From positions 1 to 38,567 of the IMG/VR virus record IMGVR_UViG_2531839486_000019: DNA of 38,567 bases; one strand, written 5' to 3'. The DNA comes from a virus. Taxonomy: Duplodnaviria; Heunggongvirae; Uroviricota; Caudoviricetes. The notes beneath the pieces are model-generated. The model made no database searches. It was not told the DNA's origin and saw nothing but the letters and a program-made list of their open reading frames with translations. A program made the position numbers and the translations under genes. Shown piece after piece: positions 1 through 38,567 of this stretch (its first letter is position 1; every line of letters begins with the position of its first letter).

Positions 1-516
1 ATGAAATTTAAAAAATGTCTTCTGCCTGTGGCAATGTTAGCGTCATTCACTCTGGCAGGATGCCAGTCAAATGCTGACGATCATGCTGCCGATGTTTATC
101 AAACCGATCAACTGAATACCAAACAAGAAACTAAAACCGTTAATATTATTTCCATTCTTCCCGCAAAAGTTGCCGTAGACAACTCCCAAAATAAACGGAA
201 CGCACAAGCCTTCGGCGCGCTTATTGGCGCAGTCGCTGGCGGTGTTATCGGCCACAACGTCGGGTCTGGCAGCAATTCCGGAACGACGGCAGGGGCAGTT
301 GGCGGCGGAGCTGTAGGCGCGGCAGCGGGTTCTATGGTGAATGATAAAACCTTAGTGGAAGGTGTTTCTTTAACCTATAAGGAAGGCACCAAAGTGTATA
401 CCTCTACCCAGGTGGGTAAAGAGTGCCAGTTTACGACAGGTTTAGCCGTTGTTATTACCACGACGTATAACGAAACGCGTATTCAGCCAAATACCAAATG
501 TCCTGAAAAGAGCTAA
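1..516 (+). CDS. Gly/Ala-rich (glycine-zipper) lipoprotein, SlyB/YcfJ-like; probably host or prophage-flank gene
   Basis: ATG at 1; signal peptide with lipobox L-A-G-C; GAVAGGVIGH and GGGAVGAAAG glycine-zipper stretches; RBS not visible at window edge. Confidence 0.6.
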   Translation: MKFKKCLLPVAMLASFTLAGCQSNADDHAADVYQTDQLNTKQETKTVNIISILPAKVAVDNSQNKRNAQAFGALIGAVAGGVIGHNVGSGSNSGTTAGAVGGGAVGAAAGSMVNDKTLVEGVSLTYKEGTKVYTSTQVGKECQFTTGLAVVITTTYNETRIQPNTKCPEKS

Positions 517-531
517 TAATCAGGAGGAGTC

Positions 532-1071
532 ATGAAGAAAGTTTTTCTTTGCGCCATCTTAGCCTCCTTAAGCTATCCGGCTATCGCCTCATCATTGCAG
601 GATCAACTCTCTGCTGTCGCAGAAGCGGAACAGCAAGGTAAAAATGAAGAGCAAAGGCAGCATGACGAATGGGTCGCGGAGCGCAACAGGGAAATCCAGC
701 AAGAGAAGCAACGTCGCGCAAATGCCCAGGCCGCCGCTAACAAAAGAGCGGCAACGGCAGCGGCAAATAAGAAAGCTCGTCAGGATAAACTGGACGCCGA
801 AGCCTCTGCGGACAAAAAACGCGATCAAAGTTATGAAGATGAGCTACGCAGCTTAGAGATTCAGAAACAAAAACTGGCGCTGGCAAAAGAAGAAGCCCGC
901 GTTAAGCGAGAAAACGAATTTATCGATCAGGAACTGAAGCACAAAGCTGCGCAAACCGATGTGGTGCAATCTGAAGCTGACGCCAACAGAAATATGACTG
1001 AAGGCGGTCGCGATCTGATGAAAAGCGTGGGCAAAGCAGAAGAGAACAAATCGGACAGCTGGTTTAATTAA
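532..1071 (+). CDS. secreted Ala/Lys/Glu/Gln-rich coiled-coil protein, function unknown
   Basis: RBS caGGAGGagtc 5 nt before ATG; N-terminal signal peptide; low-complexity charged helical composition. Confidence 0.55.
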   Translation: MKKVFLCAILASLSYPAIASSLQDQLSAVAEAEQQGKNEEQRQHDEWVAERNREIQQEKQRRANAQAAANKRAATAAANKKARQDKLDAEASADKKRDQSYEDELRSLEIQKQKLALAKEEARVKRENEFIDQELKHKAAQTDVVQSEADANRNMTEGGRDLMKSVGKAEENKSDSWFN

Positions 1072-1110
1072 TCGATGTTAGTAACTTCAATCCTATAATT
1101 CTTGAAGATA

Positions 1111-1143
1111 AAAAACCCTCTGTAGTAACAGAGGGTTTTGTTC
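1111..1143. terminator. bidirectional rho-independent terminator after the flank genes
   Basis: A-run, stem aaccctctg (1114-1122) / cagagggtt (1129-1137), loop tagtaa, then T-run. Confidence 0.6.
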
Positions 1144-1265
1144 ATTCATAGTGCAGGGTCAAATCATTCCCACTCAATTATTTACGGCTTACATAACCAA
1201 TTGACTGATAACAACTTTCCGCAACCTTATTTTCACCGTACCGTTTTATATACCGTCACCGGAAA

Positions 1266-3148: not shown

Positions 3149-3177
3149 TAGTCAAATTACCTTTTGGGTGATATAGT
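3149..3177 (+). promoter_or_regulatory. candidate promoter of the acyltransferase gene with operator-like dyad in the spacer
   Basis: -35-like TAGTCA (3149-3154), 17-bp spacer containing TTACC-TTTTG-GGTGA (3157-3171), -10 TATAGT (3172-3177). Confidence 0.4.
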
Positions 3178-3204
3178 TAATTTCTATACCCCCAAACATT
3201 TACC

Positions 3205-4215
3205 ATGAACATGAAAACATTAAATGGATTAACTATTTTCAGGTTTGTAGCTGCGTTTTATGTATTTATATTTCACTGCAATATCAGATTCCCAGCAGAA
3301 ATTGGTGATTTTCTAAACAGAATTGTTAAGAATGGTGCAATTGGAATGACATTCTTTTTTGTTCTGTCTGGTTTTGTCATGGCATGGTCATCGCAAGGTG
3401 GGGTGAAGTCTGATTATTTTGCGCGTCGCTTAAGGAGAATTTACCCAGCGTATATTTTTATGGGATTGGTGAGTCTCCCATTTATTATTGATTTAAAGCC
3501 ACAGCAAATCGTTCCATCTTTATTAATGTTCATTACTGGAACTCAGGCATGGATACCTTCTTCATTTTCACTATGGAACTTCATTGGTTCGTGGTCGGTA
3601 TCGACTGAGCTATTTTTTTATGCAACGTTCCCTATCTTGTTCCCATTGATTAAGAAAAGACCAGGGGCCTTTCTTCTTTCATCATTGGCTGTAACTTCAC
3701 TGCTGGTTCCGTTCTCTATAATGCTTGGGAGCGGCTCACAGTTCCCTTTGTTCTATGTCAGCCCAATCCACCGGCTACCTGAGTTTATCATTGGCGTATG
3801 CGCTGGGGTTTACTTTACCAATGGGATAAGGTTATCGCGTCGCAATAGTGTTCTCCTTATTGCATTATCATTATTAACATTAACAGTAATATCAACAAGA
3901 ATGAATTCTGGGTTTATGACTATGAATTTATTCACAGTCCCAGCCACTGCCATACTCATTTTTTCTCTTGCATCTTTAAATGTGAGAGATGATGGATTAG
4001 CGGCGCTTCCCATATACTTTGGAAAAATTAGCTACTCTTTCTATTTGATGCAGATACCATTGATAATGTTTATCGAAAAATATCATTACCTGTTTAATGA
4101 TATGAATACGTTATCATGCTGGGTAGGCATGTTTATAGCTAACACAATAATGGCATGCATATCTTATCACTTCGTAGAAGAAGCCTTTATGAAAATGAAA
4201 TACCAATCCGCCTAA
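3205..4215 (+). CDS. acyltransferase family 3 membrane protein (OafA/Oac-like O-antigen acetyltransferase candidate); lysogenic-conversion cargo
   Basis: 336 aa multi-TM protein with N-terminal acyltransferase-3 signature (FRFVAAFYVFIFHC, FFVLSGFV); opposite strand to late genes; AT-rich; next to tailspike. Confidence 0.8.
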   Translation: MNMKTLNGLTIFRFVAAFYVFIFHCNIRFPAEIGDFLNRIVKNGAIGMTFFFVLSGFVMAWSSQGGVKSDYFARRLRRIYPAYIFMGLVSLPFIIDLKPQQIVPSLLMFITGTQAWIPSSFSLWNFIGSWSVSTELFFYATFPILFPLIKKRPGAFLLSSLAVTSLLVPFSIMLGSGSQFPLFYVSPIHRLPEFIIGVCAGVYFTNGIRLSRRNSVLLIALSLLTLTVISTRMNSGFMTMNLFTVPATAILIFSLASLNVRDDGLAALPIYFGKISYSFYLMQIPLIMFIEKYHYLFNDMNTLSCWVGMFIANTIMACISYHFVEEAFMKMKYQSA

Positions 4216-4247
4216 AGTTAACACCCCCTCAATCGAGGGGGGCAAGA

Positions 4248-6536
4248 CTACAGTACAGGGGAAAGTGATACTCTTAACCCGGATGTAGACGATAGGGTTA
4301 AAGAACCAACAGCTTTGATATTGAGAATATCTCCAGTTGTAACAAATTTAACCATGTCTACCGTCTGCCCTGCGGAAGCATTCTCCTCAGAAGCTCCATT
4401 AATGCCAAAAGTTAACGATCCCGAAGATACCCCTCTGGCAAACACAGAAATTCTTACCAGCGCTGGTGCATTGAACTGAATAGTACCTCCGGATAACGCA
4501 GCGTTTGCCGTCCCATTTAACGAAGAGAATGTCACTTCTGCTCCAGATGCGAATGATGTTCCGGTTGTTACGGTTGTCTGACCAAACCCGACCATTCGGT
4601 TTTTAAAACGGTAAGAATCAAGGCTGGTCAAGCTGATATTAGAAAGTCGCGTATTTGCTGATATGTCAAGATATCCTCCAGATTCATTTATCACTCTTGT
4701 GTTAGCCGCATCAGCCAAAATAGTAGATGGCCTCAAGTTTAGCCTTCCTCCTGAAAGAACATGAATGATCCCCTCTGATGTCGAGTCTTGTGTGACATGA
4801 AAAATAGCGCTGAGATTAACATCGATATTTGAATTTGATCCTACGCGTAATATACAAGCAGCTGAACTTTCGCAAGATACATCTCCATAAAACCAACTAT
4901 TGGTTGTCTGAAAACAAGAAGGAGTTGGGGAGGAAGCGGTGTGTTTTTTTATATTTTCAAAAGTCACGCGTTCCAGCTTGCCATTGCCAAAATACTCAAC
5001 CTGCATACCGCGAGTATAACCATTAAATGACAGACGAAACGATACTGAGTTACCACAGTCAAGAGTCGTCGAAAAATGGTCAGCCCAAAGCCCAAAAGAC
5101 AAGACAGGATCGGAGGTTTCAGCAGCCAAGCCTACATGCCTTCCAGCTAATTTACCAAGGAACGCAACGTTAAATCTAATCCCCCCATTAAACCCCCGGC
5201 TGTCGATCTCAATGTCAAAGTCTGCCATATGAGGGGCATAAATCGCCCAGTCAGATTTCATACTTGATTGCAACGTAAAACCTTTGGCTACAATCCCCCT
5301 TGCGAAGGGGGTTGCAGCATTCTGCCGCTTAATGATGACCCCAGCATCCACATCAAAGGGTACAAGGTCACCAACACCAGGATAGGCAAGAGGAGGAATG
5401 CCACTGGTAGTGTTATCAACTTTCACAAATCTGGGTGTAAAAGCTGCATCACTACCTATTGTCATTCCTTCAATGTGATTGTAGTAATCAAGTACGATCG
5501 GTTTTTTATGATAAATAACAGATGTAATGTAAACAATTGAATAACCAAACCTAGATCGGGTAACTGCCTGTGCTATAAAAGCGTCATTTTGCTCTGCAAA
5601 TGATTCATCAATAATTTTTACACCGAATTGCTGAAAATTGTATGTATCCTTCTTCATAAGCCATGCAAATTTTGTTTCGTCGATAACTACTGACCCAGCA
5701 TCCGTATAGTCCTGAAGAGGTGCACCTTCGCTAATAATGTAATCCGCGCCACCTCCGTCGTTTGGCGTATAGTAGCCCAGCGTTCTGCACACCTTCCCGA
5801 CGGCTGGTGCAGTTGAGATCATATCAGCTACGTTCTGAAAGACGTTATCCACTCCACCGATCAGCAAAGACCCATGTGTTGCAGCAAGCTGTATAAGAAC
5901 ATCAGAGGCCGAACCAGAAGGAGGCAGTACGACAAATGGATTACCCGAACTGTCGAAGGCAATCATTTTGTTTGCCCTGGTAGCCGCATCAGGTAGCTGA
6001 GATATAGGATCTGGGACTCGTAACGTGCGACTAAAATTGTTGTTCGCCAGCGTATCAACATAATTCTTGGTGGCCGCATCCTGCGGGTCGCGCGGATCTC
6101 GAAGATTACGGATGTAGTTGTTAAGGGCGTCGTACCAGTTCGCAATGCTGGACGGTTTACGCAGCGCCAGGCGAAACATACTGTAGGCCTGCTGGATCAG
6201 CATCGTCAGCTTATCGAAAGCGTCTTCATGTACCTCAGCGAAGAACTTGCCCTGATTACGCAAATCAGTTTCCTGCGTAACCGGGAGGTCTCGTGATATA
6301 GAAATCTGATAACCGTTAGCCAACGCCTTCGACAGAATTACATTACCGCCGTTGTACCCTCCCGCACCAGTTACTGTGTAATCAGTATCAAGAGCCAGCA
6401 CAGCGATATTTTCATCAAGGTCAACCACCTGAACAACCAGGTCGGATTTTTTGAAAATACGGAAGGTATACGGAAATGATGTCGTAGCGCCGTTACCGGT
6501 GTATTCGTTGTGGTCAACTTCGGTTGAGACCGTCAT
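4248..6536 (-). CDS. tailspike / tail fiber with T7 gp17-like N-terminal anchor domain and large C-terminal receptor-binding (probable depolymerase) domain
   Basis: ATG 6534-6536 with RBS GGAGA 8 nt upstream; N-terminal ~110 aa resemble podovirus tail-fiber N-domain; C-terminal two-thirds AT-rich. Confidence 0.85.
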   Translation of the reverse strand: MTVSTEVDHNEYTGNGATTSFPYTFRIFKKSDLVVQVVDLDENIAVLALDTDYTVTGAGGYNGGNVILSKALANGYQISISRDLPVTQETDLRNQGKFFAEVHEDAFDKLTMLIQQAYSMFRLALRKPSSIANWYDALNNYIRNLRDPRDPQDAATKNYVDTLANNNFSRTLRVPDPISQLPDAATRANKMIAFDSSGNPFVVLPPSGSASDVLIQLAATHGSLLIGGVDNVFQNVADMISTAPAVGKVCRTLGYYTPNDGGGADYIISEGAPLQDYTDAGSVVIDETKFAWLMKKDTYNFQQFGVKIIDESFAEQNDAFIAQAVTRSRFGYSIVYITSVIYHKKPIVLDYYNHIEGMTIGSDAAFTPRFVKVDNTTSGIPPLAYPGVGDLVPFDVDAGVIIKRQNAATPFARGIVAKGFTLQSSMKSDWAIYAPHMADFDIEIDSRGFNGGIRFNVAFLGKLAGRHVGLAAETSDPVLSFGLWADHFSTTLDCGNSVSFRLSFNGYTRGMQVEYFGNGKLERVTFENIKKHTASSPTPSCFQTTNSWFYGDVSCESSAACILRVGSNSNIDVNLSAIFHVTQDSTSEGIIHVLSGGRLNLRPSTILADAANTRVINESGGYLDISANTRLSNISLTSLDSYRFKNRMVGFGQTTVTTGTSFASGAEVTFSSLNGTANAALSGGTIQFNAPALVRISVFARGVSSGSLTFGINGASEENASAGQTVDMVKFVTTGDILNIKAVGSLTLSSTSGLRVSLSPVL

Positions 6537-6614: not shown

Positions 6615-6656
6615 AGACAACCCATAAATAAGAACAGATATTACCTTTCAGGTGAT
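6615..6656 (+). promoter_or_regulatory. candidate promoter plus operator-like dyad upstream of the 85-aa plus-strand gene
   Basis: -35-like TAGACA (6615-6620), 17-bp spacer, -10-like GATATT (6638-6643) overlapping dyad TTACC-TTTCA-GGTGA (6642-6656). Confidence 0.4.
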
Positions 6657-6731
6657 TCGCAAAACGTGCTGGATAGCAAACAAATTATTTGCTACTGTAT
6701 AAATATACAGTTATTGCATGGAGAAGATAAG

Positions 6732-6989
6732 ATGCAGCAGTATCACTATCCACTGGAAGACGGATTTACCGAAAGGATTCACACGCCGGGAGGCGTCAGA
6801 TCACTAGTGGAGGGATCGCACTTGATGAAATTACTCCGGGATCTCGATAAGGATGGATTTAATGTCGATGGCCCACTTGCCGAACTGACTGCACTGATTA
6901 ACTACGTCACCAGCTCACAGATGTCTATGCAGGATCTGCAAACACATCTCGACTATTGTGCCGAACAATTACGAAAACAAACTACATAA
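6732..6989 (+). CDS. hypothetical 85-aa protein (cargo gene on opposite strand to late genes)
   Basis: internal ATG at 6732 preceded by GGAGAAG; the longer track ORF from 6609 lacks an RBS; TAA at 6987-6989. Confidence 0.5.
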   Translation: MQQYHYPLEDGFTERIHTPGGVRSLVEGSHLMKLLRDLDKDGFNVDGPLAELTALINYVTSSQMSMQDLQTHLDYCAEQLRKQTT

Positions 6990-6990
6990 A

Positions 6991-7012
6991 GAAAAGGCCG
7001 CGAAAGCGGCCT
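6991..7012 (-). terminator. rho-independent terminator acting on the minus strand
   Basis: stem aggccgc / gcggcct with GAAA loop; on the minus strand it is followed by TTTTCTTT. Confidence 0.5.
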
Positions 7013-7020
7013 GTGACATG

Positions 7021-7317
7021 TCACGTTCCTTTTCTGAATGCTAGCCATTCGAAAAATGATGACATTCCACCGCAGACAATAGCAAAGATGATCCCACCAA
7101 AGAAGAGAAGGCCAGCCTGCCACCACTCCCACCGCCATACATCCACAGCGCCAACCATACCAACAATCGCTCCAACAAATGGAATATAGCTCACGATGAA
7201 AGCAATGGGGGCTGCAATTATCCAGTGCAATCCCCACCATGATTCAAGCCCAGCCATAATTGCTGCCAACTGAAAAAGACCAACGACGATATAAACAATG
7301 AATCCTATAGCTTGCAT
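7021..7317 (-). CDS. small membrane protein (3 predicted TM helices), function unknown
   Basis: ATG at 7315-7317 with RBS AGGTGA; the N-terminal extension of the track ORF is unsupported; hydrophobic, Trp-rich. Confidence 0.5.
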   Translation of the reverse strand: MQAIGFIVYIVVGLFQLAAIMAGLESWWGLHWIIAAPIAFIVSYIPFVGAIVGMVGAVDVWRWEWWQAGLLFFGGIIFAIVCGGMSSFFEWLAFRKGT

Positions 7318-7513
7318 GTAGTCACCTAATTTACCCAGTAAAAATAAGAGGCCTCCCCTCAATAAGGCTTGCAACAAGAACGACTCCCTGCACAACAAAG
7401 ATGAACCAGCAAATAGCTTGAGTCTGAGGGTTAAGAAAATATTTGTAGCGGTCAATAAATAACAATCCACCAGAAATTATCACACTCAAAATAATTAAAA
7501 ACACAACACTTCC

Positions 7514-19548: not shown

Positions 19549-19599
19549 CTTCTTTCTCCATTAGTGGGTCTGTTACGACCCACAGGTTAATAACAGGCG

Positions 19600-20592
19600 T
19601 TACACCACGCGGGCTTCTGTTTCCAGAAGCGCATCAGTTTCACGGATTGGTACACCACGGAATGAAGTCCACCACTCGCCTTCTGTCTCTTTTACGCTGA
19701 TCGCCAGAGATGTTTTCTCCAGAGATTGCAGATCAAGAGCCTGGCCTACAGTGCGGTTCATGTAGAACACCGGGCGACCCATGCCACGATTTGGAATGCG
19801 ATGCAGTGCTTTAACCATCAACTTCGCAATATTTGCGGCAGAGGAAGGTTCTGAAAGATTGCTGACATCGATGTTTGCAATGCGAACAACATAACGCCAG
19901 TCACGCAGAGCAAGTCCGTTGTCCCATTTGTAATGGGTACGGTAGCCTTCGTACTTGCCGCCATTCGCATCTTCCAGTGTCACCTGGCCTTTATCTTCCA
20001 TCTGGATGCCAGCCTTCTGCCCTTTCGGGAAGATGCCATGCACGGTGTTTTCGCCCCACACCACTAACCAGATTGAGGTGTTATCTGTACCCGTGCCACC
20101 AGCATCAATGATGTTCTGAGCATTACCCGCAGACAGGCTGGAATAGCGGGAGGACAGTCCCATAAACTGCTGAGGGTTAACGCTGGAATCACCATAAAAC
20201 AGCGTCTGCGCCATCTGCTGATTCATCGCTTCAATAAATGCGCGGTCTTCAGACAGGCGGAATTCGGCGGTATTGCCGTTCAGATCAGCCAGTGACTTAT
20301 CGACTTCAGCATAGGTTTCCAGCATGCCAACGGAATCTGTTACCTGCACTGTGGTTGATTTGCTTGGCTGTACGCCATAGTTCAGCAAACGCCAGGTAGC
20401 TGAAGGTAAACCAGAACGAATGGTGGTTCGGTGTCCGGTAGGAAGGTTCCCTTCGACAAAAGGCATATCCTGAAGGATCGGGTTAGTTTGACCGAGAAGC
20501 TCGATAATCTTATCGACTTTCCCGTTTGGATCGACGCGCTTACCCCAGTCAGCCAGCGTTAGCGCAGTTAAGCCTTTAACAGCCATTGTCAT
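19600..20592 (-). CDS. major capsid protein (T7 gp10-like)
   Basis: 330 aa after the scaffold gene; RBS GAGAGG favours the start at Met3 (20584-20586). Confidence 0.8.
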   Translation of the reverse strand: MTMAVKGLTALTLADWGKRVDPNGKVDKIIELLGQTNPILQDMPFVEGNLPTGHRTTIRSGLPSATWRLLNYGVQPSKSTTVQVTDSVGMLETYAEVDKSLADLNGNTAEFRLSEDRAFIEAMNQQMAQTLFYGDSSVNPQQFMGLSSRYSSLSAGNAQNIIDAGGTGTDNTSIWLVVWGENTVHGIFPKGQKAGIQMEDKGQVTLEDANGGKYEGYRTHYKWDNGLALRDWRYVVRIANIDVSNLSEPSSAANIAKLMVKALHRIPNRGMGRPVFYMNRTVGQALDLQSLEKTSLAISVKETEGEWWTSFRGVPIRETDALLETEARVV

Positions 20593-23560: not shown

Positions 23561-23597
23561 TTGACATTTAACGCACAAATTATTACCTTTCAGGTAA
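23561..23597 (+). promoter_or_regulatory. candidate plus-strand promoter with operator-like dyad driving the tRNA operon
   Basis: perfect -35 TTGACA (23561-23566); dyad TTACC-TTTCA-GGTAA (23583-23597) over the -10 region; exact -10 hexamer ambiguous. Confidence 0.4.
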
Positions 23598-23919
23598 GCA
23601 AAGGGTTCATTCCGGTTATTAACCTGACTGGCTTGTCGTTAAATTGAACAGGTGGAGTGAGCTTTTATTTTGAGCAGTACGGCGTATGGCACATGCGCCG
23701 ATAGCGGTCTGGATACGTTTAAGGGGCACCCTCCCTTGCTCGGGCAAACGAACCAGGTAGCCGGAATGTGCAAGTCGAGCGGTTTTATTCCGCGCACGGG
23801 GATTCACCATCCCGGCGATTCGGTGTGACACCTCGGAAGAGACGAGGGTACAACGATGAGAGCATTTATGGAGCCGCGACAAAGTGTGGCGCCTTAACAG
23901 GCTAAGTGCTCTCAGCGTT

Positions 23920-23996
23920 GTGGCATTAGCTCAGTTGGACAGAGCAACCGCCTTCTAAGCGGTTGGTCGCAGGTTCGAATCCTGCATGCCACGCCA
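23920..23996 (+). tRNA. tRNA-Arg (anticodon UCU), phage-encoded
   Basis: 77-nt cloverleaf: acceptor GTGGCAT/ATGCCAC, D-stem GCTC/GAGC, anticodon stem ACCGC/GCGGT with loop CTTCTAA, T-arm GCAGG-TTCGAAT-CCTGC, discriminator G, encoded CCA. Confidence 0.85.
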
Positions 23997-24039
23997 GAAT
24001 CACGCCTAAGGACCGTGATGCCAGAAGTTCCAGGTGCTT

Positions 24040-24081
24040 GGCGGTGATGGTTTCCCTTGAAGGACTATCACCGCCCTTTTT
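24040..24081 (+). terminator. rho-independent terminator downstream of the tRNA
   Basis: stem ggcggtgat (24040-24048) / atcaccgcc (24067-24075) followed by CTTTTT. Confidence 0.5.
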
Positions 24082-24159
24082 ACAGCAGGACGCCATTGCG
24101 ATGACTTCATGCTGTAAACCCGTACAGCCACGGAAGGCATAACTCATTGCTTCCAGTTC

Positions 24160-24183
24160 GCCCGGTTCGCCGGGCATTTTTTT
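24160..24183 (+). terminator. second terminator-like hairpin ending 12 nt before the 123-aa gene start (attenuator candidate)
   Basis: stem gcccgg / ccgggc with ttcg loop, then A + TTTTTTT (24177-24183); RBS AAGGTGAGA follows directly. Confidence 0.45.
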
Positions 24184-24194
24184 AAGGTGAGATT

Positions 24195-24566
24195 ATGAAC
24201 GACCAGCAAATCGAAAAAGAAATCGTTGAGAAAGGAAAAACGGCACCGCGCGTTACGCCAGACCATATCGAAGGCATTATTGCTCAGGAGGCATATTTCA
24301 CAGCAGAAGATGGTGCCTTTGGCAAAGCCATAAAAGCGAAACATACTGGCGGAGAGGTAAACTACCAGCCGCACGAATCACTTTCTCTGCTGACGTTCTG
24401 CGTCCTGGTACTGCGCAACGGCTTCACCGTCACCGGAGAGAGTGCCTGTGCAAGTCCGGAAAATTTTGATGCAGAAATTGGTCGGAAGATTGCCCGGCAG
24501 AATGCTGTAAACAAAATCTGGATGCTCGAAGGTTACTTGCTGAAGCAGAAGCTAAGCGAGCAATAA
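24195..24566 (+). CDS. hypothetical 123-aa protein (cargo gene co-oriented with the tRNA)
   Basis: ATG 24195 with RBS AAGGTGAG 5 nt upstream; TAA at 24564-24566; terminator downstream. Confidence 0.6.
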   Translation: MNDQQIEKEIVEKGKTAPRVTPDHIEGIIAQEAYFTAEDGAFGKAIKAKHTGGEVNYQPHESLSLLTFCVLVLRNGFTVTGESACASPENFDAEIGRKIARQNAVNKIWMLEGYLLKQKLSEQ

Positions 24567-26132: not shown

Positions 26133-26725
26133 TGATTACCATCCTGACGTTCTTTGAGTCGCTTCCTGGCTGCTGCTATGCGATCAGCAATTGTCACATT
26201 CACATTAACATCCAGACGTTCTTTGAACGCGTTGACATCAACATGCTTACCAATCAGCTCAAGGTTCTTCACCTTGTCCGGCCATTTGATTTTTTTGAGG
26301 ATTGTCTCTATCGAATCCTCGTTCATGTTCATGATGGTCGATGACAGATCAAAGCCGCTAAGCGTAGTGCGCCAGATTTTCGGCCACTCGCGGATTGGTT
26401 TAAGGCTCCCATCGTCGTTGAGGATGTCGATCACGTCCATCTGGTCGATCTCCACCAGGCGCATGAGAACGTAATCAGCACTGACGCGCATTCGTTTGTT
26501 GCGTTCCTCCATCAGCTCGGCAATCCGTTTCTGAATGCGTTCATCTCGCATCATGACACTGGCTTTAACTGCCGCTGTATTTGGGGAGAATCCTGCGTTA
26601 ATCGCTGCCTGAGTCTGGTTTTCAGGCGTTTTGATGTATGACTGGCAATAAGCCTCCTGCATTGCTGTTAGTGGCTTAAATTGCGTTGATTTGCGTTTAT
26701 AGGTTTTAGTTTCAGCAGGCATCAT
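26129..26725 (-). CDS. terminase small subunit
   Basis: start moved to ATG 26723-26725 (MMPAETK...); the upstream 26 track codons translate a tandem DNA repeat and are unlikely coding. Confidence 0.7.
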   Translation of the reverse strand: MMPAETKTYKRKSTQFKPLTAMQEAYCQSYIKTPENQTQAAINAGFSPNTAAVKASVMMRDERIQKRIAELMEERNKRMRVSADYVLMRLVEIDQMDVIDILNDDGSLKPIREWPKIWRTTLSGFDLSSTIMNMNEDSIETILKKIKWPDKVKNLELIGKHVDVNAFKERLDVNVNVTIADRIAAARKRLKERQDGNQ

Positions 26726-26732
26726 AACCACC

Positions 26733-26764
26733 GTGGTAATAGTTACCGTTGTGGTAATAGTACC
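26733..26764. repeat. tandem direct repeat GTGGTAATAG(T)TACC x2 immediately upstream of the terminase small gene
   Basis: copies at 26733-26747 and 26751-26764; each is itself a GGTAA...TTACC dyad. Confidence 0.6.
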
Positions 26765-30419: not shown

Positions 30420-30496
30420 TTACCTCTGAGGTAATTAAAAACCACATAAGACACGAAATCAATAGATTTTAGAATATTTTATTACCTAACAGGTAA
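30420..30496 (+). promoter_or_regulatory. regulatory module between the P-like gene and nin genes: two operator-like dyads flanking AACCACATA
   Basis: TTACC-TCTGA-GGTAA (30420-30434); AACCACATA (30440-30448); TTACC-TAACA-GGTAA (30482-30496). Confidence 0.45.
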
Positions 30497-32426: not shown

Positions 32427-32441
32427 ATTACCTTTGAGGTG
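32427..32441. promoter_or_regulatory. operator-like dyad between the Cro-like gene and the next early gene
   Basis: TTACC-TTTGA-GGTGA; preceded by perfect palindrome AACCAAATTTGGTT. Confidence 0.4.
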
Positions 32442-32497
32442 AGAATAGATATGAAAAGACCGCCGGATGACGGTCTACAGAGGGTTGTGGCTGGATA

Positions 32498-32728
32498 TCA
32501 TGAGTAGAAGAAGTATGCCAGTTCTGCTTTTGAGCGCAGCCATTGTCTTGTTTTACAGGCTTTAAAAAGCCCATTCATCAATACCTTACCTGGCATTTTG
32601 CGCTTACCTGTTAAGTGAGTCTGGATATAGTGACTCGTCGTTCCGGCTTCCTGTGCGAAGGCTTCACGCTCATCCGGAGTAAGTGCAAGCCAGTGCTTTT
32701 TGAAATCGAAATGTCCGTTATCGCTCAT
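32498..32728 (-). CDS. Cro-like HTH regulator (YdaS/Cro family)
   Basis: 76 aa, ATG 32726-32728; HTH-like segment DEREAFAQEAGTTSHYIQTHLTGKR; divergent from the CI-like gene. Confidence 0.6.
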   Translation of the reverse strand: MSDNGHFDFKKHWLALTPDEREAFAQEAGTTSHYIQTHLTGKRKMPGKVLMNGLFKACKTRQWLRSKAELAYFFYS

Positions 32729-32773
32729 AGCTATTGCCTGATATTTATTTCAGATAATAAATATTCACCCATA

Positions 32774-32827
32774 AGGTAACAAAAATCAAGGATAGTTACC
32801 TATGGGGTGCATTTACCTGTTGGGTAA
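32774..32827. promoter_or_regulatory. right operator-like region between the divergent Cro-like and CI-like genes
   Basis: inverted repeat AGGTAAC-N14-GTTACCT (32774-32801) and dyad TTACC-TGTTG-GGTAA (32813-32827). Confidence 0.45.
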
Positions 32828-32882: not shown

Positions 32883-33467
32883 ATGAAAAGTATCCAGGAC
32901 GTCCGCAGGCAAAATCTCAACGACTTGATCGACCGTGAATTCAATGGTGTTCAGACGCGGATGGCAGAAAAACTTGGAACTCAGGCAAATCTGGTAAACC
33001 GCTGGGCTCTTGGCAAGAAGGTTATCGGCGACCAGGTTGCGCGAAAAATTGAAGCTGCCGCCAATAAACCCCGTAACTGGCTTGATATCGATCGCTCGCT
33101 TTCTCAGGAAGGTTTTCAGCCTGTCGGCCCAAGCGACATTGGTCAGCTGGCGGCTCACAACCTGGAACGCTGGATGAGCGAAAGCCGCGACCTTTCAACA
33201 CAGGGAAAACTTCACCGCGCATCCGGCGTCGCCCAGGTGACAATCAGCCGCCTGTTAAACAATGAGGTCAGCGTTTCCATTTCCACCCTGGAGAATGTTG
33301 CATCTGCATTCGGGCGTCACGGATATGAACTACTGATTCACCCGCACGACCCTGCAACTATCAACTATGACCGCTCGCGCTACGCATTATTACCTGAAAC
33401 CGAGAAAGCAAAGATCGAAAGTTACATTGAATTTGTCATCAACCAGAACGAAAAAAACAAACAATAA
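32883..33467 (+). CDS. CI-like repressor candidate with HTH domain(s) and no recognisable LexA/S24 cleavage domain
   Basis: XRE-type HTH (GVQTRMAEKLGTQANLVNRWALGKK) and a second HTH-like stretch; no Ala-Gly/Ser-Lys peptidase motifs seen; divergent from Cro-like gene. Confidence 0.55.
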   Translation: MKSIQDVRRQNLNDLIDREFNGVQTRMAEKLGTQANLVNRWALGKKVIGDQVARKIEAAANKPRNWLDIDRSLSQEGFQPVGPSDIGQLAAHNLERWMSESRDLSTQGKLHRASGVAQVTISRLLNNEVSVSISTLENVASAFGRHGYELLIHPHDPATINYDRSRYALLPETEKAKIESYIEFVINQNEKNKQ

Positions 33468-33488
33468 AATCATATTTTTCAGTAAGTA

Positions 33489-33512
33489 AGCCGCCAAATG
33501 GCGGCTTTTTTT
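33489..33512 (+). terminator. rho-independent terminator after the CI-like gene
   Basis: stem agccgcc / ggcggct with aaat loop, then TTTTTT. Confidence 0.65.
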
Positions 33513-33525
33513 ATTGTCTTTTTAA

Positions 33526-33602
33526 TTACCTTACAGGTAATTTTTTTAACTCATATCTATTGACATCAAACCAAATACGCATAATTATTACCTCAACGGT
33601 AA
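33526..33602 (+). promoter_or_regulatory. pL-like early-left promoter with two operator-like dyads
   Basis: dyad TTACC-TTACA-GGTAA (33526-33540); -35 TTGACA (33560-33565); 17-bp spacer; -10 AATTAT (33583-33588) overlapped by dyad TTACC-TCAAC-GGTAA (33588-33602). Confidence 0.5.
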
Positions 33603-33776: not shown

Positions 33777-34076
33777 ATGAACGTTAATCAGCAGAAAAAT
33801 CTTCAAAAAATCATGCTGGCATTCGACAAGGACTACCGCCTGTCAGAACAGCTATATGACCGACAAGTTGAACTGATTGAGAGCATCCGACTTCATCAAC
33901 TGTCCTCAACTTTCGACGTTGTAACAGGCAAAGGCGTTCGTCAGGAAGTACTGGAGGCTGCTAAAGACAGCCCTGAGTTCGAAGAACTGATGGATGCCTA
34001 TCGGCGAGAGGCAATGGCAATTATCGCCCGCTGGGATCTGGCGGATCAGATTGATGGACAGAGGGACGCGGCATGA
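33777..34076 (+). CDS. hypothetical protein
   Basis: ATG 33777 with RBS GGGAGGG; the earlier track start lacks an RBS. Confidence 0.5.
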   Translation: MNVNQQKNLQKIMLAFDKDYRLSEQLYDRQVELIESIRLHQLSSTFDVVTGKGVRQEVLEAAKDSPEFEELMDAYRREAMAIIARWDLADQIDGQRDAA

Positions 34077-34894
34077 AACCGGGAATTTATTTCGACATCA
34101 GCAACGAAGACTACCACGCCGGTGACGGAGTGAGTAAGTCGCAACTAGACATGGTTGCCAAGAATCCGGCGCTTCTTAAATGGGTTCAGGCAGCACCAGA
34201 AGACGAAGAGAAAAAGTCTGCACTGGATATGGGAACCGCATTGCACTGTCTGCTTCTGGAGCCTGGAGAGTTCGACAAACGCTTCATTGTTTCACCGAAA
34301 TTCGATCGTCGGACGAAACAAGGTAAAGCTGACGAAGAGGCATTTCTTCGTGATGTGGCGGATATGGGGATTACGGTACTTGATGCCGAGCAGTGGCGGA
34401 AACTGGAGCTGATGCGTGATAGCGCAATGGCTCACCCGGCGGCACGCTGGATGCTGGAAGCACCTGGTTACTGCGAAGCATCAATGTACTGGAACGATGA
34501 AGATACTGGTGAGTTGTGCCGAATTCGTCCAGACAAATGGCTGAACGAGCACAACGTGATCGTCGACGTGAAAAAGGTTGCAGATATGGACCGTTTTGCA
34601 CGCCACATCGAGGAATTCCGCTACCACGTGCAGGACGCAATGTACCGCGAAGGCGCAATGAGGGTTACTGGTCAGCCGCATGGTTTTTTCTTTCTTGCCG
34701 TGAGCGAAAGCATTGATTGTGGTCGATATCCGGTACGCGTGTTCGAGCTGGATGCGACGGATGTCGATGCCGGGCACGCTCTGTTCCGCCGGGATCTGAA
34801 TACCTATCACGAATGCCGCATCAACGATGAGTGGGGCGGAGTGGAAATTATTAAACGCCCTGACTGGGCACGTAAACAGGATATGTACGTATGA
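34073..34894 (+). CDS. putative exonuclease (RecE/YqaJ-like PD-(D/E)xK recombination exonuclease)
   Basis: N-terminal IYFDISNEDYHAGDGVSKSQL pattern typical of phage recombination exonucleases; paired with a downstream RecT-like gene. Confidence 0.65.
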   Translation: MKPGIYFDISNEDYHAGDGVSKSQLDMVAKNPALLKWVQAAPEDEEKKSALDMGTALHCLLLEPGEFDKRFIVSPKFDRRTKQGKADEEAFLRDVADMGITVLDAEQWRKLELMRDSAMAHPAARWMLEAPGYCEASMYWNDEDTGELCRIRPDKWLNEHNVIVDVKKVADMDRFARHIEEFRYHVQDAMYREGAMRVTGQPHGFFFLAVSESIDCGRYPVRVFELDATDVDAGHALFRRDLNTYHECRINDEWGGVEIIKRPDWARKQDMYV

Positions 34895-35772
34895 GCAACG
34901 ACATCGCAATCACATCGCAGCCCGGCGCCACTGTAGGAACCGCCGCTGCAATCTTCAGCCCGGAGGGCATGAATCAACTGGTGCGCTTCGCTGATCTGAT
35001 GGCACAGAGCAAAGCCACCGTTCCGGCACACCTGGCTGGCAAGCCGGCAGACTGCCTGGCCGTGACCATGCAGGCGGCACAGTGGGGAATGAACCCTTTC
35101 GCCGTGGCGCAGAAAACGCATGTGGTAAACGGAACGTTAGGCTACGAAGCACAGTTGGTAAACGCGGTCGTATCCTCTTCCAGCCTGCTAGCGACACGCC
35201 TGAATTATCGCTGGAGCGGTGACTGGTCGAATGTTAACGGCAAAACAGATAAATCACCGAATCTGACGGTAACTGTGTCAGCAGTTCTTAAAGGAGAAGC
35301 AGAACCCCGTGAGCTTACCATCAGTATGGCGCAAGCCGGAGTGCGTAACTCTCCATTGTGGGAACAGGATCCGCGCCAGCAGCTTGCCTATCTTTGCACG
35401 AAACGATGGGCTCGCCTGCACGCTCCTGATGTACTTCTCGGTGTTTACACCCCTGACGAATTACAGGAAACGGCACCGCGCGTTGAGCGAGACATTACTC
35501 CGCAAACAACTACGGCTGCGGGAATGAATAGTCTGATCAACGCTAAAACAGTGAAAAAGCCTGATGAGCAAACGCGTAAAGCGGATAGCCGTGATCCAGA
35601 AGAAATGCTGATGGCCTTTACCAGCGCAGCGATGAATTACAGCACTGTCTCCGAACTGGATAAGGCTTACAAATACATTGCACAAAAACTTTCAGATGAT
35701 GACGAACTGCTGGCAAAAGCCACCGACGTTTACAGCGTTCGTCGGGAAGAATTAAACGAAACATCTATGTAA
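34891..35772 (+). CDS. RecT-like single-strand annealing recombinase
   Basis: 293 aa; core region (AQWGMNPFAVAQKTHVVNGTLGYEAQLVNAVV) resembles the RecT/Red-beta family; overlaps exonuclease stop. Confidence 0.65.
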   Translation: MSNDIAITSQPGATVGTAAAIFSPEGMNQLVRFADLMAQSKATVPAHLAGKPADCLAVTMQAAQWGMNPFAVAQKTHVVNGTLGYEAQLVNAVVSSSSLLATRLNYRWSGDWSNVNGKTDKSPNLTVTVSAVLKGEAEPRELTISMAQAGVRNSPLWEQDPRQQLAYLCTKRWARLHAPDVLLGVYTPDELQETAPRVERDITPQTTTAAGMNSLINAKTVKKPDEQTRKADSRDPEEMLMAFTSAAMNYSTVSELDKAYKYIAQKLSDDDELLAKATDVYSVRREELNETSM

Positions 35773-37316: not shown

Positions 37317-38567
37317 TTATTCCCCCGCCATCCATTTCTCAAACTTCGACGGGGAGAACGGAATCAGATCCGTATGCTCCCCGTCAATCCAGGAATCAAT
37401 CATATCGGCCCACTGCTGCAACATCCAGGCGCGCTGTCTGGCGTATTCCGCTTTGTTATATACGGCGCGCACACCTTTCTGCTCATGTGCCAGAGCCTTT
37501 TCAATCCAGTCTGAAGGATAACCAGCCTCATGCAATAACGTACTGGCTGTACGGCGCATATCGTGTACGGTGAAGTCCTGAATATGCTCACCATTTTCAT
37601 TTATTATTTTCACCGTTCTGTCGATCAGAGAGTTCAGCGCGGCATTAGATAATGGCTTCCGGAAGTTGTAACGACCAGGAACCAGATATTCACTTCCACC
37701 AGCGCACATCTGCAGCCCGACCAATATATCCTGTGCCTGTTTAGGCAGGTAAATAACGTGCGCCCGGCTTCCCTTCATGCGGTCTGAAGGAATTGTCCAT
37801 GTCCATTTTTTAAAATCTATTTCATCCCACGTTGCGTTGGTGAATTCGCCTTTACGAACCATAGTGATAAGCACCAGCTTTAAAGCCATTTTCATAGTGC
37901 CCATAGCACCAATGGCATCCAGCGTGCGGAAGAACAGGCCAATTTCTTCTGGTGTCAGTGTTCGCTCTCTTGGTTTAAATATGGCGATAGACGAAGGTTT
38001 AATGTCAGCCGCAGGATTAAACAAACCATGACCACGGTCATTGGCGTGACGGTATACGCTGCTGATGATCTCCCTTGCCTGTACTGCTGTTGCCCGACCA
38101 CCGCGTTCGACAATCCGGTCACACAAATCACGAACCATCGATGTGGTAATTTCAGTCATCATTTTGTTGCCAAGAACCGGAAGTATGTCACGGTCGATCA
38201 CCGCCTGCTTCATTGCGCGGGTACTGTCAGCCAGGATGACGTGTTTCATATAACTGTCGGTATGTACCGTAAACGTCTCGGCACCACGAATCTTTTTGAT
38301 ACCGTCACGTTTAGCCGCAGCCGGTGACTGGCCTGCTTTAAGCAGCTTCTTTGCAGCAATCAGTTCTTCTCGCGCTTCTGCCAGGCTGATACCGTCACGC
38401 CCATACTGCCCGATTACCAGTGTTTCGCGGCGACCGTTGATACGGTAGTCATAGCGAAACGAGACCGTACCTGACGTAAGCACAGCTACATACAGCCCGT
38501 CACGATCGGAAACTTTGTACAGTTTGTCCTGTGGCTTGAGGTTCTTTAATTTTGTATCGGTAAGCAC
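37317..38567 (-). CDS. int: tyrosine site-specific integrase (P4-like); 5' end at or just beyond the window edge
   Basis: 416 aa; N-terminus LTDTKLKNLKPQDKLYKVSDRDGLYV typical of integrase arm-binding domain; C-terminal catalytic region with HDMRRT and conserved Tyr; first codon GTG at window edge. Confidence 0.85.
   Translation of the reverse strand: MLTDTKLKNLKPQDKLYKVSDRDGLYVAVLTSGTVSFRYDYRINGRRETLVIGQYGRDGISLAEAREELIAAKKLLKAGQSPAAAKRDGIKKIRGAETFTVHTDSYMKHVILADSTRAMKQAVIDRDILPVLGNKMMTEITTSMVRDLCDRIVERGGRATAVQAREIISSVYRHANDRGHGLFNPAADIKPSSIAIFKPRERTLTPEEIGLFFRTLDAIGAMGTMKMALKLVLITMVRKGEFTNATWDEIDFKKWTWTIPSDRMKGSRAHVIYLPKQAQDILVGLQMCAGGSEYLVPGRYNFRKPLSNAALNSLIDRTVKIINENGEHIQDFTVHDMRRTASTLLHEAGYPSDWIEKALAHEQKGVRAVYNKAEYARQRAWMLQQWADMIDSWIDGEHTDLIPFSPSKFEKWMAGE

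What the first reader, a model, noticed from the sequence alone, without database searches (positions are those of the whole stretch)
32883..33467. CI-like repressor appears to lack a RecA-cleavable S24 peptidase domain
The protein in the cI position has an N-terminal XRE-type HTH and a second HTH-like stretch, but I see no Ala-Gly cleavage site or Ser/Lys catalytic motifs typical of lambda CI or LexA. If so, induction would not work by RecA-stimulated autocleavage and may need an antirepressor, possibly one of the small unknown genes such as 6732-6989 or 24195-24566.
Basis: inference. Interest (0 to 1): 0.55.

Follow-up and report, generated by a model that had tools for sequence, protein, structure and literature searches.

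The report
Known LexA-controlled antirepressor prophage switch
The prophage repressor really does lack a self-cleaving domain, because it belongs to the already characterised Rep/Ant switch of Salmonella phage SPC32H, in which DNA damage lifts LexA repression of a small antirepressor gene that is also present in this window at 6732-6989.

Summary
The window is an E. coli chromosomal segment carrying a phiV10-type Uetakevirus prophage. ORF 32883-33467 (194 aa) is 100% identical to the phiV10 and vB_EcoP_ZX5 repressors. It aligns over its full length (42% identity, E 4e-42) with SPC32H Rep (PDB 5D50/5D4Z). Profile searches find only helix-turn-helix families and no Peptidase_S24. The protein contains no Ala-Gly or Cys-Gly dipeptide.

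It is preceded by the only strong LexA box in the window (TACTGTATAAATATACAGTT, 18/20 of consensus, 6693-6712). That box is conserved in six of eight Uetakevirus sequences compared, and it is mutated in SPC32N.

The second candidate, 24195-24566, is a Phage_gp49_66 family protein with no link to antirepression.

ATTACC-N5-GGTAAT Rep operators flank the early promoters and also occur at other operon starts, as already annotated in the epsilon15 record.

The inferred pathway is SOS, then LexA cleavage, then Ant synthesis, then Ant binding to Rep and release of Rep from DNA. Rep/Ant binding and the absence of Rep cleavage were shown for SPC32H, not here. The module occurs in about 10% of complete E. 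coli genomes, where ant is still annotated 'hypothetical protein'.

The parts
32883..33467 (+). rep: prophage master repressor, 194 aa. Approximate domains by alignment to SPC32H Rep: N-terminal HTH DNA-binding domain (aa 1-70), variable linker (71-88), middle HTH-like dimerisation domain (89-152), C-terminal tetramerisation/Ant-binding tail (153-190).
   Evidence: ORF. Pfam HTH only, no S24. Full-length match to PDB 5D50_A and match of aa 89-190 to 5D4Z_A. 100% identical to phiV10p40 and ZX5 ORF21. Domain names DBD/MDD/CAD from PMC9986798. Per-domain conservation.
6732..6989 (+). ant: 85-aa antirepressor, orthologue of SPC32H Ant. It lies about 26 kb from rep, between the tailspike gene and the virion genes.
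   Evidence: phmmer to 5D50_E 'Anti-repressor protein', E 1.3e-47. 88% identity to SPC32H ant. Same position as the annotated ant of SPC32H. phrog_450.
6693..6712 (.). LexA (SOS) box TACTGTATAAATATACAGTT, ending 20 nt before the ant ATG
   Evidence: Exact CTGT-N8-ACAG. 18/20 of the consensus TACTGTATATATATACAGTA, and the only site of 15/20 or better in the window. Conserved in six of the eight Uetakevirus ant upstream regions; SPC32N carries a C->A change in the ACAG half and Klebsiella BUCT711 has ATGT for CTGT.
6670..6698 (+). Inferred ant promoter: -35 TGGATA (6670-6675), 17-nt spacer, -10 TACTGT (6693-6698) inside the LexA box. RBS GGAG at 6720-6723.
   Evidence: Read from the sequence. 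The CTGGA-A core of the TGCTGGATAG block is invariant in the 8-phage alignment. The simple promoter scanner did not call it, so this is inference.
6641..6655 (.). Rep operator (TTACCTTTCAGGTGA, 1 mismatch) between tailspike and ant, 14 nt upstream of the inferred ant -35
   Evidence: Conserved in all 8 phages. The syntenic site is annotated 'protein_bind: repressor' in the epsilon15 record.
6995..7012 (.). GC-rich hairpin directly after ant; likely bidirectional terminator
   Evidence: scored on the - strand; sequence.
32765..32827 (.). OR-like region with three operators: 32765-32779 (1 mismatch), 32796-32810 (2 mismatches), 32813-32827 (perfect). A PR-like promoter on the - strand (TTGTTA-17-TATTAT, 32782-32754) overlaps the first operator.
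   Evidence: SPC32H has the same three-site layout with 30/17-bp spacing.
32498..32728 (-). Cro-like first gene of the rightward-type early operon
   Evidence: phrog_35 'transcriptional repressor', E 5.6e-13. Divergent from rep.
33488..33507 (+). rep terminator
33526..33602 (+). OL-like region: perfect operators at 33526-33540 and 33588-33602 (62 bp centre to centre) bracket the PL-like promoter TTGACA-17-AATTAT (33560-33588), which reads into the recombination/excision operon
30420..30496 (-). Third early promoter region: perfect operators at 30420-30434 and 30482-30496, again 62 bp apart. The promoter TCGACA-16-TAAAAT (30503-30476, - strand) overlaps the second operator.
   Evidence: Syntenic sites are present in phiV10, SPC32H and epsilon15.
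32428..32442 (.). Operator-like site (1 mismatch) downstream of the cro-like gene
26725..26757 (.). Pair of operator-like sites (26725-26739 with 1 mismatch; 26743-26757 perfect) at the start of the terminase/late operon
   Evidence: The syntenic epsilon15 site at 12-27 is annotated as a repressor site.
23583..23597 (.). Perfect operator next to a TTGACA hexamer, between the portal-side virion genes and the tRNA-Arg/gp49_66 unit
   Evidence: The syntenic epsilon15 site at 2931-2947 is annotated as a repressor site.
3157..3171 (.). Operator-like site (1 mismatch) between the lysis cassette (- strand) and the O-antigen acyltransferase gene (+ strand)
   Evidence: Syntenic sites are present in phiV10 (24692), SPC32H (24782) and epsilon15 (24704).

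Best explanation
ORF 32883-33467 is the master repressor (Rep) of an integrated phiV10-type Uetakevirus prophage, and it belongs to the SPC32H Rep family. Its N-terminal HTH domain binds 15-17-bp palindromic operators (ATTACC-N5-GGTAAT). Its second HTH-like module is a dimerisation domain. Its C-terminal tail tetramerises the protein. The operators flank three early promoters and also lie at the starts of several late or accessory units. Rep has no peptidase domain and is not expected to be cleaved during SOS. The SOS signal is instead read by host LexA at a box overlapping the promoter of ant (6732-6989). When DNA damage causes LexA to cleave itself, the 85-aa Ant protein is made. Ant binds the C-terminal part of Rep, breaks the DNA-binding tetramer into dimers held on an Ant tetramer, and so releases Rep from its operators and starts lytic growth. 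Shown here: the homologies, the absence of S24, the LexA box and its conservation, and the operator motif and its layout. Taken from work on SPC32H: Rep/Ant binding and stoichiometry, and the lack of Rep cleavage. Inferred: the exact ant promoter, and that this Rep, which is only 42% identical to SPC32H Rep, is bound by this Ant.
For: Rep aligns to 5D50_A over residues 1-190 (E 4e-42) and to 5D4Z_A over 89-190, with 42% identity to SPC32H rep. Ant aligns to 5D50_E (E 1.3e-47) at 88% identity. There is no S24 in the whole protein or in the C-terminal half and no AG/CG dipeptide. The LexA box at 6693-6712 matches 18/20 of the consensus and is the only strong box in the window. In the 8-phage alignment the box is intact in six sequences, SPC32N has a C->A change in the ACAG half, and Klebsiella BUCT711 has one change. 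The operator motif occurs 13 times at up to 1 mismatch against 0.56 expected by chance. It is the same motif, at syntenic positions, as the sites annotated 'repressor' in epsilon15 and as the sites in SPC32H. The putative recognition segment N36-W41 (NLVNRW) is invariant across six Reps that are 42-78% identical, and 13 of 38 residues of the C-terminal tail are invariant. The identical repressor protein blocks lytic growth of ZX5 when overexpressed (PMC9782041). phiV10-species prophages are induced 21-47-fold by a DNA-damaging microcin (bioRxiv 10.64898/2026.05.26.727859). Held papers summarise the SPC32H mechanism: PMC7380047, PMC9638917, PMC9986798, bioRxiv 10.1101/2025.11.27.690993. rep and ant co-occur in E. 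coli, in 537 and 529 of 5,426 complete genomes respectively.
Against: No experiment exists on this Rep/Ant pair. Rep is only 42% identical to the SPC32H protein (34% in the middle domain, 47% in the C-terminal tail) while Ant is 88% identical, so binding is an extrapolation. The ant promoter was not detected by the consensus scanner. The primary papers (Kim & Ryu 2013; Kim et al. 2016) are not in the held library, so details of the mechanism come from secondary descriptions and from my own recollection of their abstracts. The only experimental paper on the identical repressor (ZX5) attributes antirepression to a different, Bro-N-type protein.
Confidence: 0.85

Rival explanations
1. Ant is present but does not act on this diverged Rep. 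Induction of this prophage would then depend on another antirepressor, such as a Bro-N-type protein like ZX5 ORF4 or phiV10 p23, supplied in cis or by a co-resident prophage.
For: Overexpression of ZX5 Bro-N ORF4 lowered lysogeny and repressor transcription (PMC9782041). Residues 150-180 of phiV10 p23 are 45% identical to Ant residues 2-32, so Bro-N proteins may carry the same Rep-binding motif. Rep is only 42% identical to SPC32H Rep.
Against: The window has no Bro-N gene: tblastn with p23 finds only the short Ant-like stretch inside ant itself, and the p23 slot holds a membrane-protein gene (7021-7470). ant with its LexA box is retained in about as many E. coli genomes as rep (529 against 537). 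Ant and its LexA box are conserved across hosts and across Rep types.
Confidence: 0.07
2. Rep is removed proteolytically after DNA damage despite lacking S24, either through a non-canonical RecA-stimulated cleavage or through host proteases such as ClpXP or Lon. Ant would then be accessory.
For: No direct evidence. Some repressors need ClpX to complete induction (PMC10584840, listed).
Against: There is no S24 or other peptidase domain and no AG/CG site. A held review groups SPC32H with the Salmonella prophages in which repressor cleavage is not the main outcome of SOS induction and a LexA-controlled antirepressor inhibits the repressor.
Confidence: 0.04
3. The prophage is not SOS-inducible at all, and the LexA box is a chance match or a relic.
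For: The ZX5 lysogen releases 1e7 PFU/mL spontaneously.
Against: The box matches 18/20 of the consensus with an all-A/T spacer, and the next best site in 38.6 kb is 14/20. It is conserved across genera at the same distance from the ant start. phiV10-species prophages respond to a DNA-damaging microcin.
Confidence: 0.03

Closest known systems
Salmonella phage SPC32H Rep/Ant lytic switch (Kim & Ryu 2013 J Virol 87:11775; Kim et al. 2016 PNAS 113:E2480; PDB 5D4Z, 5D50)
   Same: Same phage genus (Uetakevirus) and the same gene order. Rep has the same length and the same three-part architecture. Ant is 88% identical. The LexA box is at the same place upstream of ant. The operator motif ATTACC-N5-GGTAAT is the same, with the same three-site layout between rep and the cro-like gene.
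   Different: Rep is only 42% identical, with the linker unalignable and the middle domain at 34%. The host is E. coli rather than Salmonella. No biochemistry has been done on this pair.
Escherichia phages phiV10 (p40/p24) and vB_EcoP_ZX5 (ORF21)
   Same: Rep is 100% identical and Ant is 97.6-100% identical. The attachment core ATTGAGTGGGAATGATT is the one reported for integration at the 3' end of guaA.
   Different: Those phages also carry a Bro-N 'anti-repressor' next to ant, which is absent here. The tailspike and O-antigen acyltransferase genes differ. The small Ant homologue is annotated 'hypothetical protein' in those records.
LexA-controlled antirepressors of other temperate phages: 186 Tum, Gifsy GfoA/GfhA, Fels-2, N15 AntC
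   Same: The logic is the same: a non-cleavable repressor, a small antirepressor under a LexA box, and an antirepressor gene located away from the immunity region (PMC7380047; PMC3121763, listed).
   Different: No sequence relationship was detected: Ant hits no Pfam family above cut-off, including no DinI-like or Tum-like family. From my recollection of their abstract, Kim & Ryu describe Ant as structurally distinct from the Sipho- and Myoviridae antirepressors.
Lambda CI / LexA / P22 C2 (S24 autocleaving repressors)
   Same: Same position in the genome, an N-terminal HTH, multiple operators, and divergent PR/PRM-type organisation.
   Different: No S24 domain, no Ala-Gly site and no Ser/Lys dyad. 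The SOS signal enters through LexA rather than through RecA acting on the repressor.
Rco(pLS20)/p53-type TetDloop tetramerisation domains
   Same: The C-terminal tail of SPC32H Rep, a short strand followed by a helix, was classed as this fold and is proposed to support DNA looping (PMC9986798). The 62-bp operator pairs seen here would fit bridging by a tetramer.
   Different: This was not tested for this protein. The single-sequence structure model was unusable.

Membership tests
SPC32H-type Rep/Ant switch (Uetakevirus) | Repressor homologous over its full length to SPC32H Rep (DBD + middle dimerisation domain + C-terminal tetramerisation/Ant-binding tail) | tested here: met
   phmmer to 5D50_A, query residues 1-190, E 4e-42, and to 5D4Z_A, residues 89-190. 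BLASTP 42% identity over 196 columns.
SPC32H-type Rep/Ant switch (Uetakevirus) | Repressor has no S24 peptidase domain or cleavage site | tested here: met
   Pfam E<=1 on the whole protein and E<=10 on the C-terminal half give HTH families only. No AG/CG dipeptide.
SPC32H-type Rep/Ant switch (Uetakevirus) | Small (~86 aa) Ant protein homologous to SPC32H Ant, encoded between the virion genes and the tailspike gene | tested here: met
   5D50_E, E 1.3e-47. 88% identity. Synteny with the annotated ant of SPC32H.
SPC32H-type Rep/Ant switch (Uetakevirus) | LexA box overlapping the ant promoter | tested here: met
   The box is at 6693-6712, 18/20 of consensus, and is conserved in the alignment. Its overlap with the -10 element is inferred from the sequence and was not called by the scanner.
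SPC32H-type Rep/Ant switch (Uetakevirus) | ATTACC-N5-GGTAAT operators around the early promoters | tested here: met
   13 sites against 0.56 expected. Same motif and layout in SPC32H and epsilon15.
SPC32H-type Rep/Ant switch (Uetakevirus) | Rep is stable during SOS; Ant binds Rep and releases it from DNA (Rep tetramer to Ant4-Rep4 hetero-octamer) | not testable with these tools
   Known for SPC32H only. This needs biochemistry or a multimer structure prediction.
LexA / lambda CI S24 autocleaving repressors | C-terminal Peptidase_S24 domain with a Ser/Lys dyad | tested here: not met
   No PF00717 hit at E<=10. The C-terminal half aligns to the non-peptidase 5D4Z domain.
LexA / lambda CI S24 autocleaving repressors | Ala-Gly or Cys-Gly scissile bond in the linker | tested here: not met
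   No AG or CG dipeptide anywhere in the 194 aa.
Tum/DinI-like antirepressors (186, Fels-2, Gifsy) | Sequence homology of the antirepressor to Tum/DinI-type proteins | tested here: not met
   Pfam at E<=10 gives only a sub-threshold DUF724 match. The best PHROG is phrog_450, of unknown function. No direct pairwise comparison with Tum was made.
Bro-N / KilA-C / P22 Ant-type antirepressors | Bro-N or ANT domain | tested here: not met
   No such Pfam hit for Ant and no Bro-N gene in the window. Only a 31-residue local similarity exists between the Ant N-terminus and the C-terminal part of phiV10 Bro-N p23, plus a weak phrog_1760 'anti-repressor' match.

The most novel reading that the evidence does not exclude
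Ant is held at 84-88% identity across phages whose Reps have diverged to 42%, and all these Reps keep the same operator motif and an invariant set of C-terminal residues. The most novel reading not excluded is that Ant is a 'universal' antirepressor for the whole genus, so that Uetakevirus prophages of E. coli, Salmonella and Enterobacter can cross-induce one another, as Gifsy prophages do. In that reading, the conserved Rep operator just upstream of the ant promoter adds a Rep-dependent lock on ant on top of LexA. A related possibility is that the N-terminal 30 residues of Ant form a portable Rep-binding motif that is also fused to the Bro-N proteins of phiV10 and ZX5.
Probability: 0.3. Interest if true: 0.35.

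Novelty: already known. Interest (0 to 1): 0.15.

Why it matters
It matters mainly for annotation. About one in ten complete E. coli genomes carries this rep/ant module (537 and 529 of 5,426). In RefSeq, rep is labelled only 'helix-turn-helix domain-containing protein' and ant is labelled 'hypothetical protein'. No NCBIfam model covers Ant. The one experimental paper on the identical E. coli repressor did not connect it to the SPC32H system or to LexA. Recognising the module predicts that these prophages, some of them in O157 and other pathogenic strains, are SOS-inducible through LexA and Ant rather than through repressor cleavage. It does not open a new biological question.

Tried and rejected
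1. Second antirepressor candidate, 24195-24566. It is a PF13876 Phage_gp49_66 protein of unknown function. The CTGT-N8-ACAG 68 nt upstream matches only 12/20 of the LexA consensus with a GC-rich spacer. Rejected.

2. The third exact CTGT-N8-ACAG, at 19570. It matches 9/20 and lies in the short gap between two virion genes. Treated as chance.

3. Bro-N antirepressor, as in phiV10 p23 and ZX5 ORF4. It is absent from the window.

4. Single-sequence AlphaFold2 model of Rep. Mean pLDDT was 44.9, which is unusable, so no fold search was run. An alignment-based model would have needed the large protein-database search, which I judged unnecessary given the E 4e-42 match to a solved structure.

5. Primary papers. 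Kim & Ryu 2013, Kim et al. 2016 and Kropinski et al. 2007 are not held. A search for 'SPC32N' found nothing relevant.

6. Rfam scan of the whole window. It found only the tRNA.

7. The consensus promoter scan did not call the ant promoter. The promoter given in this report is my own reading of conserved blocks.

Full report
**What the window is.** Bases 1-1071 encode the E. coli chromosomal genes yfgH and yfgI, which are present in 5,422 of 5,426 complete E. coli genomes. The 17-bp attachment core ATTGAGTGGGAATGATT, reported as the attP/attB core of phiV10, epsilon15 and vB_EcoP_ZX5 (PMC9782041), lies at 1162-1178. From there to the integrase gene at 37317-38567, the sequence is a prophage of the phiV10/epsilon15 genus Uetakevirus. 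The immunity region is 97.8% identical in DNA to phiV10, and most of the genome aligns to phiV10 at 96-98%.

**Checking the observation.** ORF 32883-33467 (+) encodes 194 aa.
- It is divergent from a 76-aa Cro-like gene (32498-32728; phrog_35), and it ends at a terminator (33488-33507).
- Pfam finds only helix-turn-helix families: HTH_3 at residues 106-147 (E 1.2e-9), HTH_26, LacI-type HTH, and a YdaS-type HTH at 21-61. There is no Peptidase_S24 at E<=1.
- The last 105 residues searched alone at E<=10 also give only HTH families. NCBIfam gives nothing above cut-off.
- There is no Ala-Gly or Cys-Gly dipeptide.

**What the protein is.**
- Against PDB sequences, the protein matches 5D50 chain A ('Repressor') over residues 1-190 (E 4e-42). 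It matches 5D4Z, the C-terminal fragment of the same protein, over residues 89-190.
- These entries are the Rep protein of Salmonella phage SPC32H. The pairwise identity to the annotated rep gene of SPC32H is 42%.
- The protein is 100% identical to phiV10 p40, vB_EcoP_ZX5 ORF21 and 11 other phage records.
- For ZX5, overexpression of this exact protein eliminated free phage and reduced endolysin and holin transcripts by more than 99.9% (PMC9782041). Its role as the lysogeny repressor is therefore experimentally supported.
- According to PMC9986798, SPC32H Rep has three parts: an N-terminal DNA-binding domain, a middle dimerisation domain, and a C-terminal tail ('CAD', a p53-like TetDloop) that tetramerises the protein and binds the antirepressor.
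This follows from homology and was not tested here.

**The antirepressor.**
- It matches 5D50 chain E ('Anti-repressor protein') at E 1.3e-47 and is 88% identical to the annotated ant gene of SPC32H.
- It sits in the same place as in SPC32H, between the tailspike gene (4248-6536, -) and the virion genes.
- Directly upstream is TACTGTATAAATATACAGTT (6693-6712). This is an exact CTGT-N8-ACAG that matches 18/20 of the E. coli LexA consensus and has an all-A/T spacer. The next best site in the whole window scores 14/20.
- I aligned eight Uetakevirus ant upstream regions: the window, phiV10, SPC32H, SPC32N, epsilon15, Tyrion, BUCT554 and Klebsiella BUCT711. The box is intact in six. Klebsiella BUCT711 has one change in the CTGT half-site.
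- SPC32N has a C->A change in the ACAG half. From my recollection of the Kim & Ryu 2013 abstract, this is the single-base LexA-box mutation that makes Ant constitutive and the phage lytic. That paper is not held, so only the base difference is a tool result.
- The CTGGA-A core of the TGCTGGATAG block is invariant. It suggests a promoter with -35 TGGATA (6670-6675), a 17-nt spacer, and -10 TACTGT (6693-6698) inside the box. This is inference: the simple scanner did not call it.

**The second candidate.** ORF 24195-24566 is a Phage_gp49_66 (PF13876) protein (E 8.6e-35). The CTGT-N8-ACAG upstream of it scores 12/20 with a GC-rich spacer. Nothing links it to antirepression.

**Operators.** TTACC-N5-GGTAA occurs 13 times in the window at up to 1 mismatch, against 0.56 expected by chance.
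- Three sites lie between rep and the cro-like gene: 32765-32779, a weaker one at 32796-32810, and 32813-32827. The first overlaps a PR-like promoter on the minus strand. SPC32H has the same three-site layout.
- Two perfect sites 62 bp apart bracket a PL-like promoter downstream of rep (33526-33602).
- Two more perfect sites, also 62 bp apart, bracket a third early promoter at 30420-30496.
- Further sites lie between tailspike and ant (6641-6655), at the terminase end of the late operon (26725-26757), next to the tRNA unit (23583-23597), and between the lysis genes and the O-antigen acyltransferase gene (3157-3171).
- The epsilon15 RefSeq record already annotates the syntenic sites as 'protein_bind: repressor'. 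Their sequences are ATTACC-N5-GGTAAT. That record also carries an HHpred note linking its repressor to 5D50_A.
- Six Reps that are 42-78% identical share an invariant NLVNRW segment in the N-terminal domain. This agrees with the shared operator motif.

**How it most likely works.**
1. In the lysogen, Rep tetramers occupy the operators and host LexA occupies the box at the ant promoter.
2. DNA damage activates RecA, and LexA cleaves itself.
3. Ant is made and binds the C-terminal part of Rep, converting DNA-bound tetramers into dimers held on an Ant tetramer.
4. Rep leaves the operators and lytic growth starts.

The binding steps are documented for SPC32H (PMC9638917; PMC9986798; bioRxiv 10.1101/2025.11.27.690993; review PMC7380047) and are extrapolated to this pair. 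Independent support for SOS inducibility of this phage species comes from a 21-47-fold induction of phiV10-species prophages by a DNA-damaging microcin.

**Caveats.**
- Rep has diverged much more than Ant. Against SPC32H, identity is 54% in the DNA-binding domain, 34% in the middle domain and 47% in the C-terminal tail, while Ant is at 88%. Binding of this Ant to this Rep is likely but unproven.
- The ZX5 paper assigned antirepression to a Bro-N protein, not to the small Ant homologue. That gene is absent from this window.
- Residues 150-180 of the phiV10 Bro-N protein are 45% identical to Ant residues 2-32, and Ant weakly matches the C-terminal end of a PHROG 'anti-repressor' family. The two kinds of antirepressor may therefore share a Rep-binding element.

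**Comparison and novelty.**
- The system meets every sequence-level criterion of the SPC32H Rep/Ant family. It fails both tested defining criteria of the S24 autocleaving repressors (see the membership table).
- It works like the LexA-controlled antirepressor systems of 186, Gifsy, Fels-2 and N15, but Ant has no detectable sequence relationship to them.
- The repressor is identical to proteins in deposited and partly studied phages, the mechanism was solved structurally for a congener, and the operators are annotated in epsilon15. The finding is therefore already known.
- Its practical value is for annotation. rep and ant occur in 537 and 529 of 5,426 complete E. coli genomes, labelled 'helix-turn-helix domain-containing protein' and 'hypothetical protein'. 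No NCBIfam model covers Ant.

**Verdict.** Novelty is 'already known', interest is low (0.15), and confidence in the mechanism is 0.85.

Noticed in passing
window 1-1178: The window starts in host DNA: yfgH (1-516) and yfgI (532-1071), followed by the phage attachment core ATTGAGTGGGAATGATT at 1162-1178. The window is therefore an integrated prophage cut at the integrase start codon (38567), not a free phage genome.
   Followed up: yes
window 33526-33602 and 30420-30496 (also phiV10 31953/32015 and 35070/35132; SPC32H 33604/33666 and 35972/36034): Operator pairs that bracket early promoters are always 62 bp apart centre to centre, which is about six helical turns, in every phage examined. This fits one Rep tetramer bridging two operators, but I did not test it.
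   Followed up: partly
window 6641-6655: A Rep operator is conserved in all eight Uetakevirus sequences, 14 nt upstream of the inferred ant -35 and facing the divergent tailspike gene. It could let Rep control ant, the tailspike gene, or both. The effect is unknown.
   Followed up: partly
L001 (phiV10) 19649-20230 versus window 6732-6830: The C-terminal part of the phiV10 Bro-N 'antirepressor' p23 (residues 150-180) is 45% identical to the N-terminal 31 residues of Ant (pairwise E 1e-6). This suggests a shared, portable Rep-binding element. The Bro-N gene itself is missing from this window.
   Followed up: partly
window 7021-7470 (-): A 149-aa predicted membrane protein (phrog_3075, unknown function, no Pfam hit) occupies the slot where phiV10 has p22 and the Bro-N p23. 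It looks like a swapped accessory (moron) gene.
   Followed up: no
window 23561-24566: A TTGACA hexamer and a perfect Rep operator (23583-23597) precede about 320 nt of non-coding sequence, a tRNA-Arg(TCT) at 23920-23996, and the gp49_66 gene. Rfam finds only the tRNA. The epsilon15 record annotates an RNase III processing site in the equivalent region.
   Followed up: partly
window 3183-6024: The O-antigen acyltransferase gene (3205-4215) and most of the tailspike gene (4248-6536) have no nucleotide match to phiV10. This implies a different O-antigen specificity and modification from the O157 phage.
   Followed up: no
window 34073-35772: The RecE-like exonuclease (34073-34894) and the RecT-like annealing protein (34891-35772) are separate overlapping genes here, as in SPC32H and epsilon15. 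The phiV10 record annotates a single fused RecE-RecT protein (p37).
   Followed up: no
RefSeq E. coli genomes: rep and ant are found in 537 and 529 of 5,426 complete E. coli genomes. ant is uniformly annotated 'hypothetical protein', and no NCBIfam model exists for it.
   Followed up: yes
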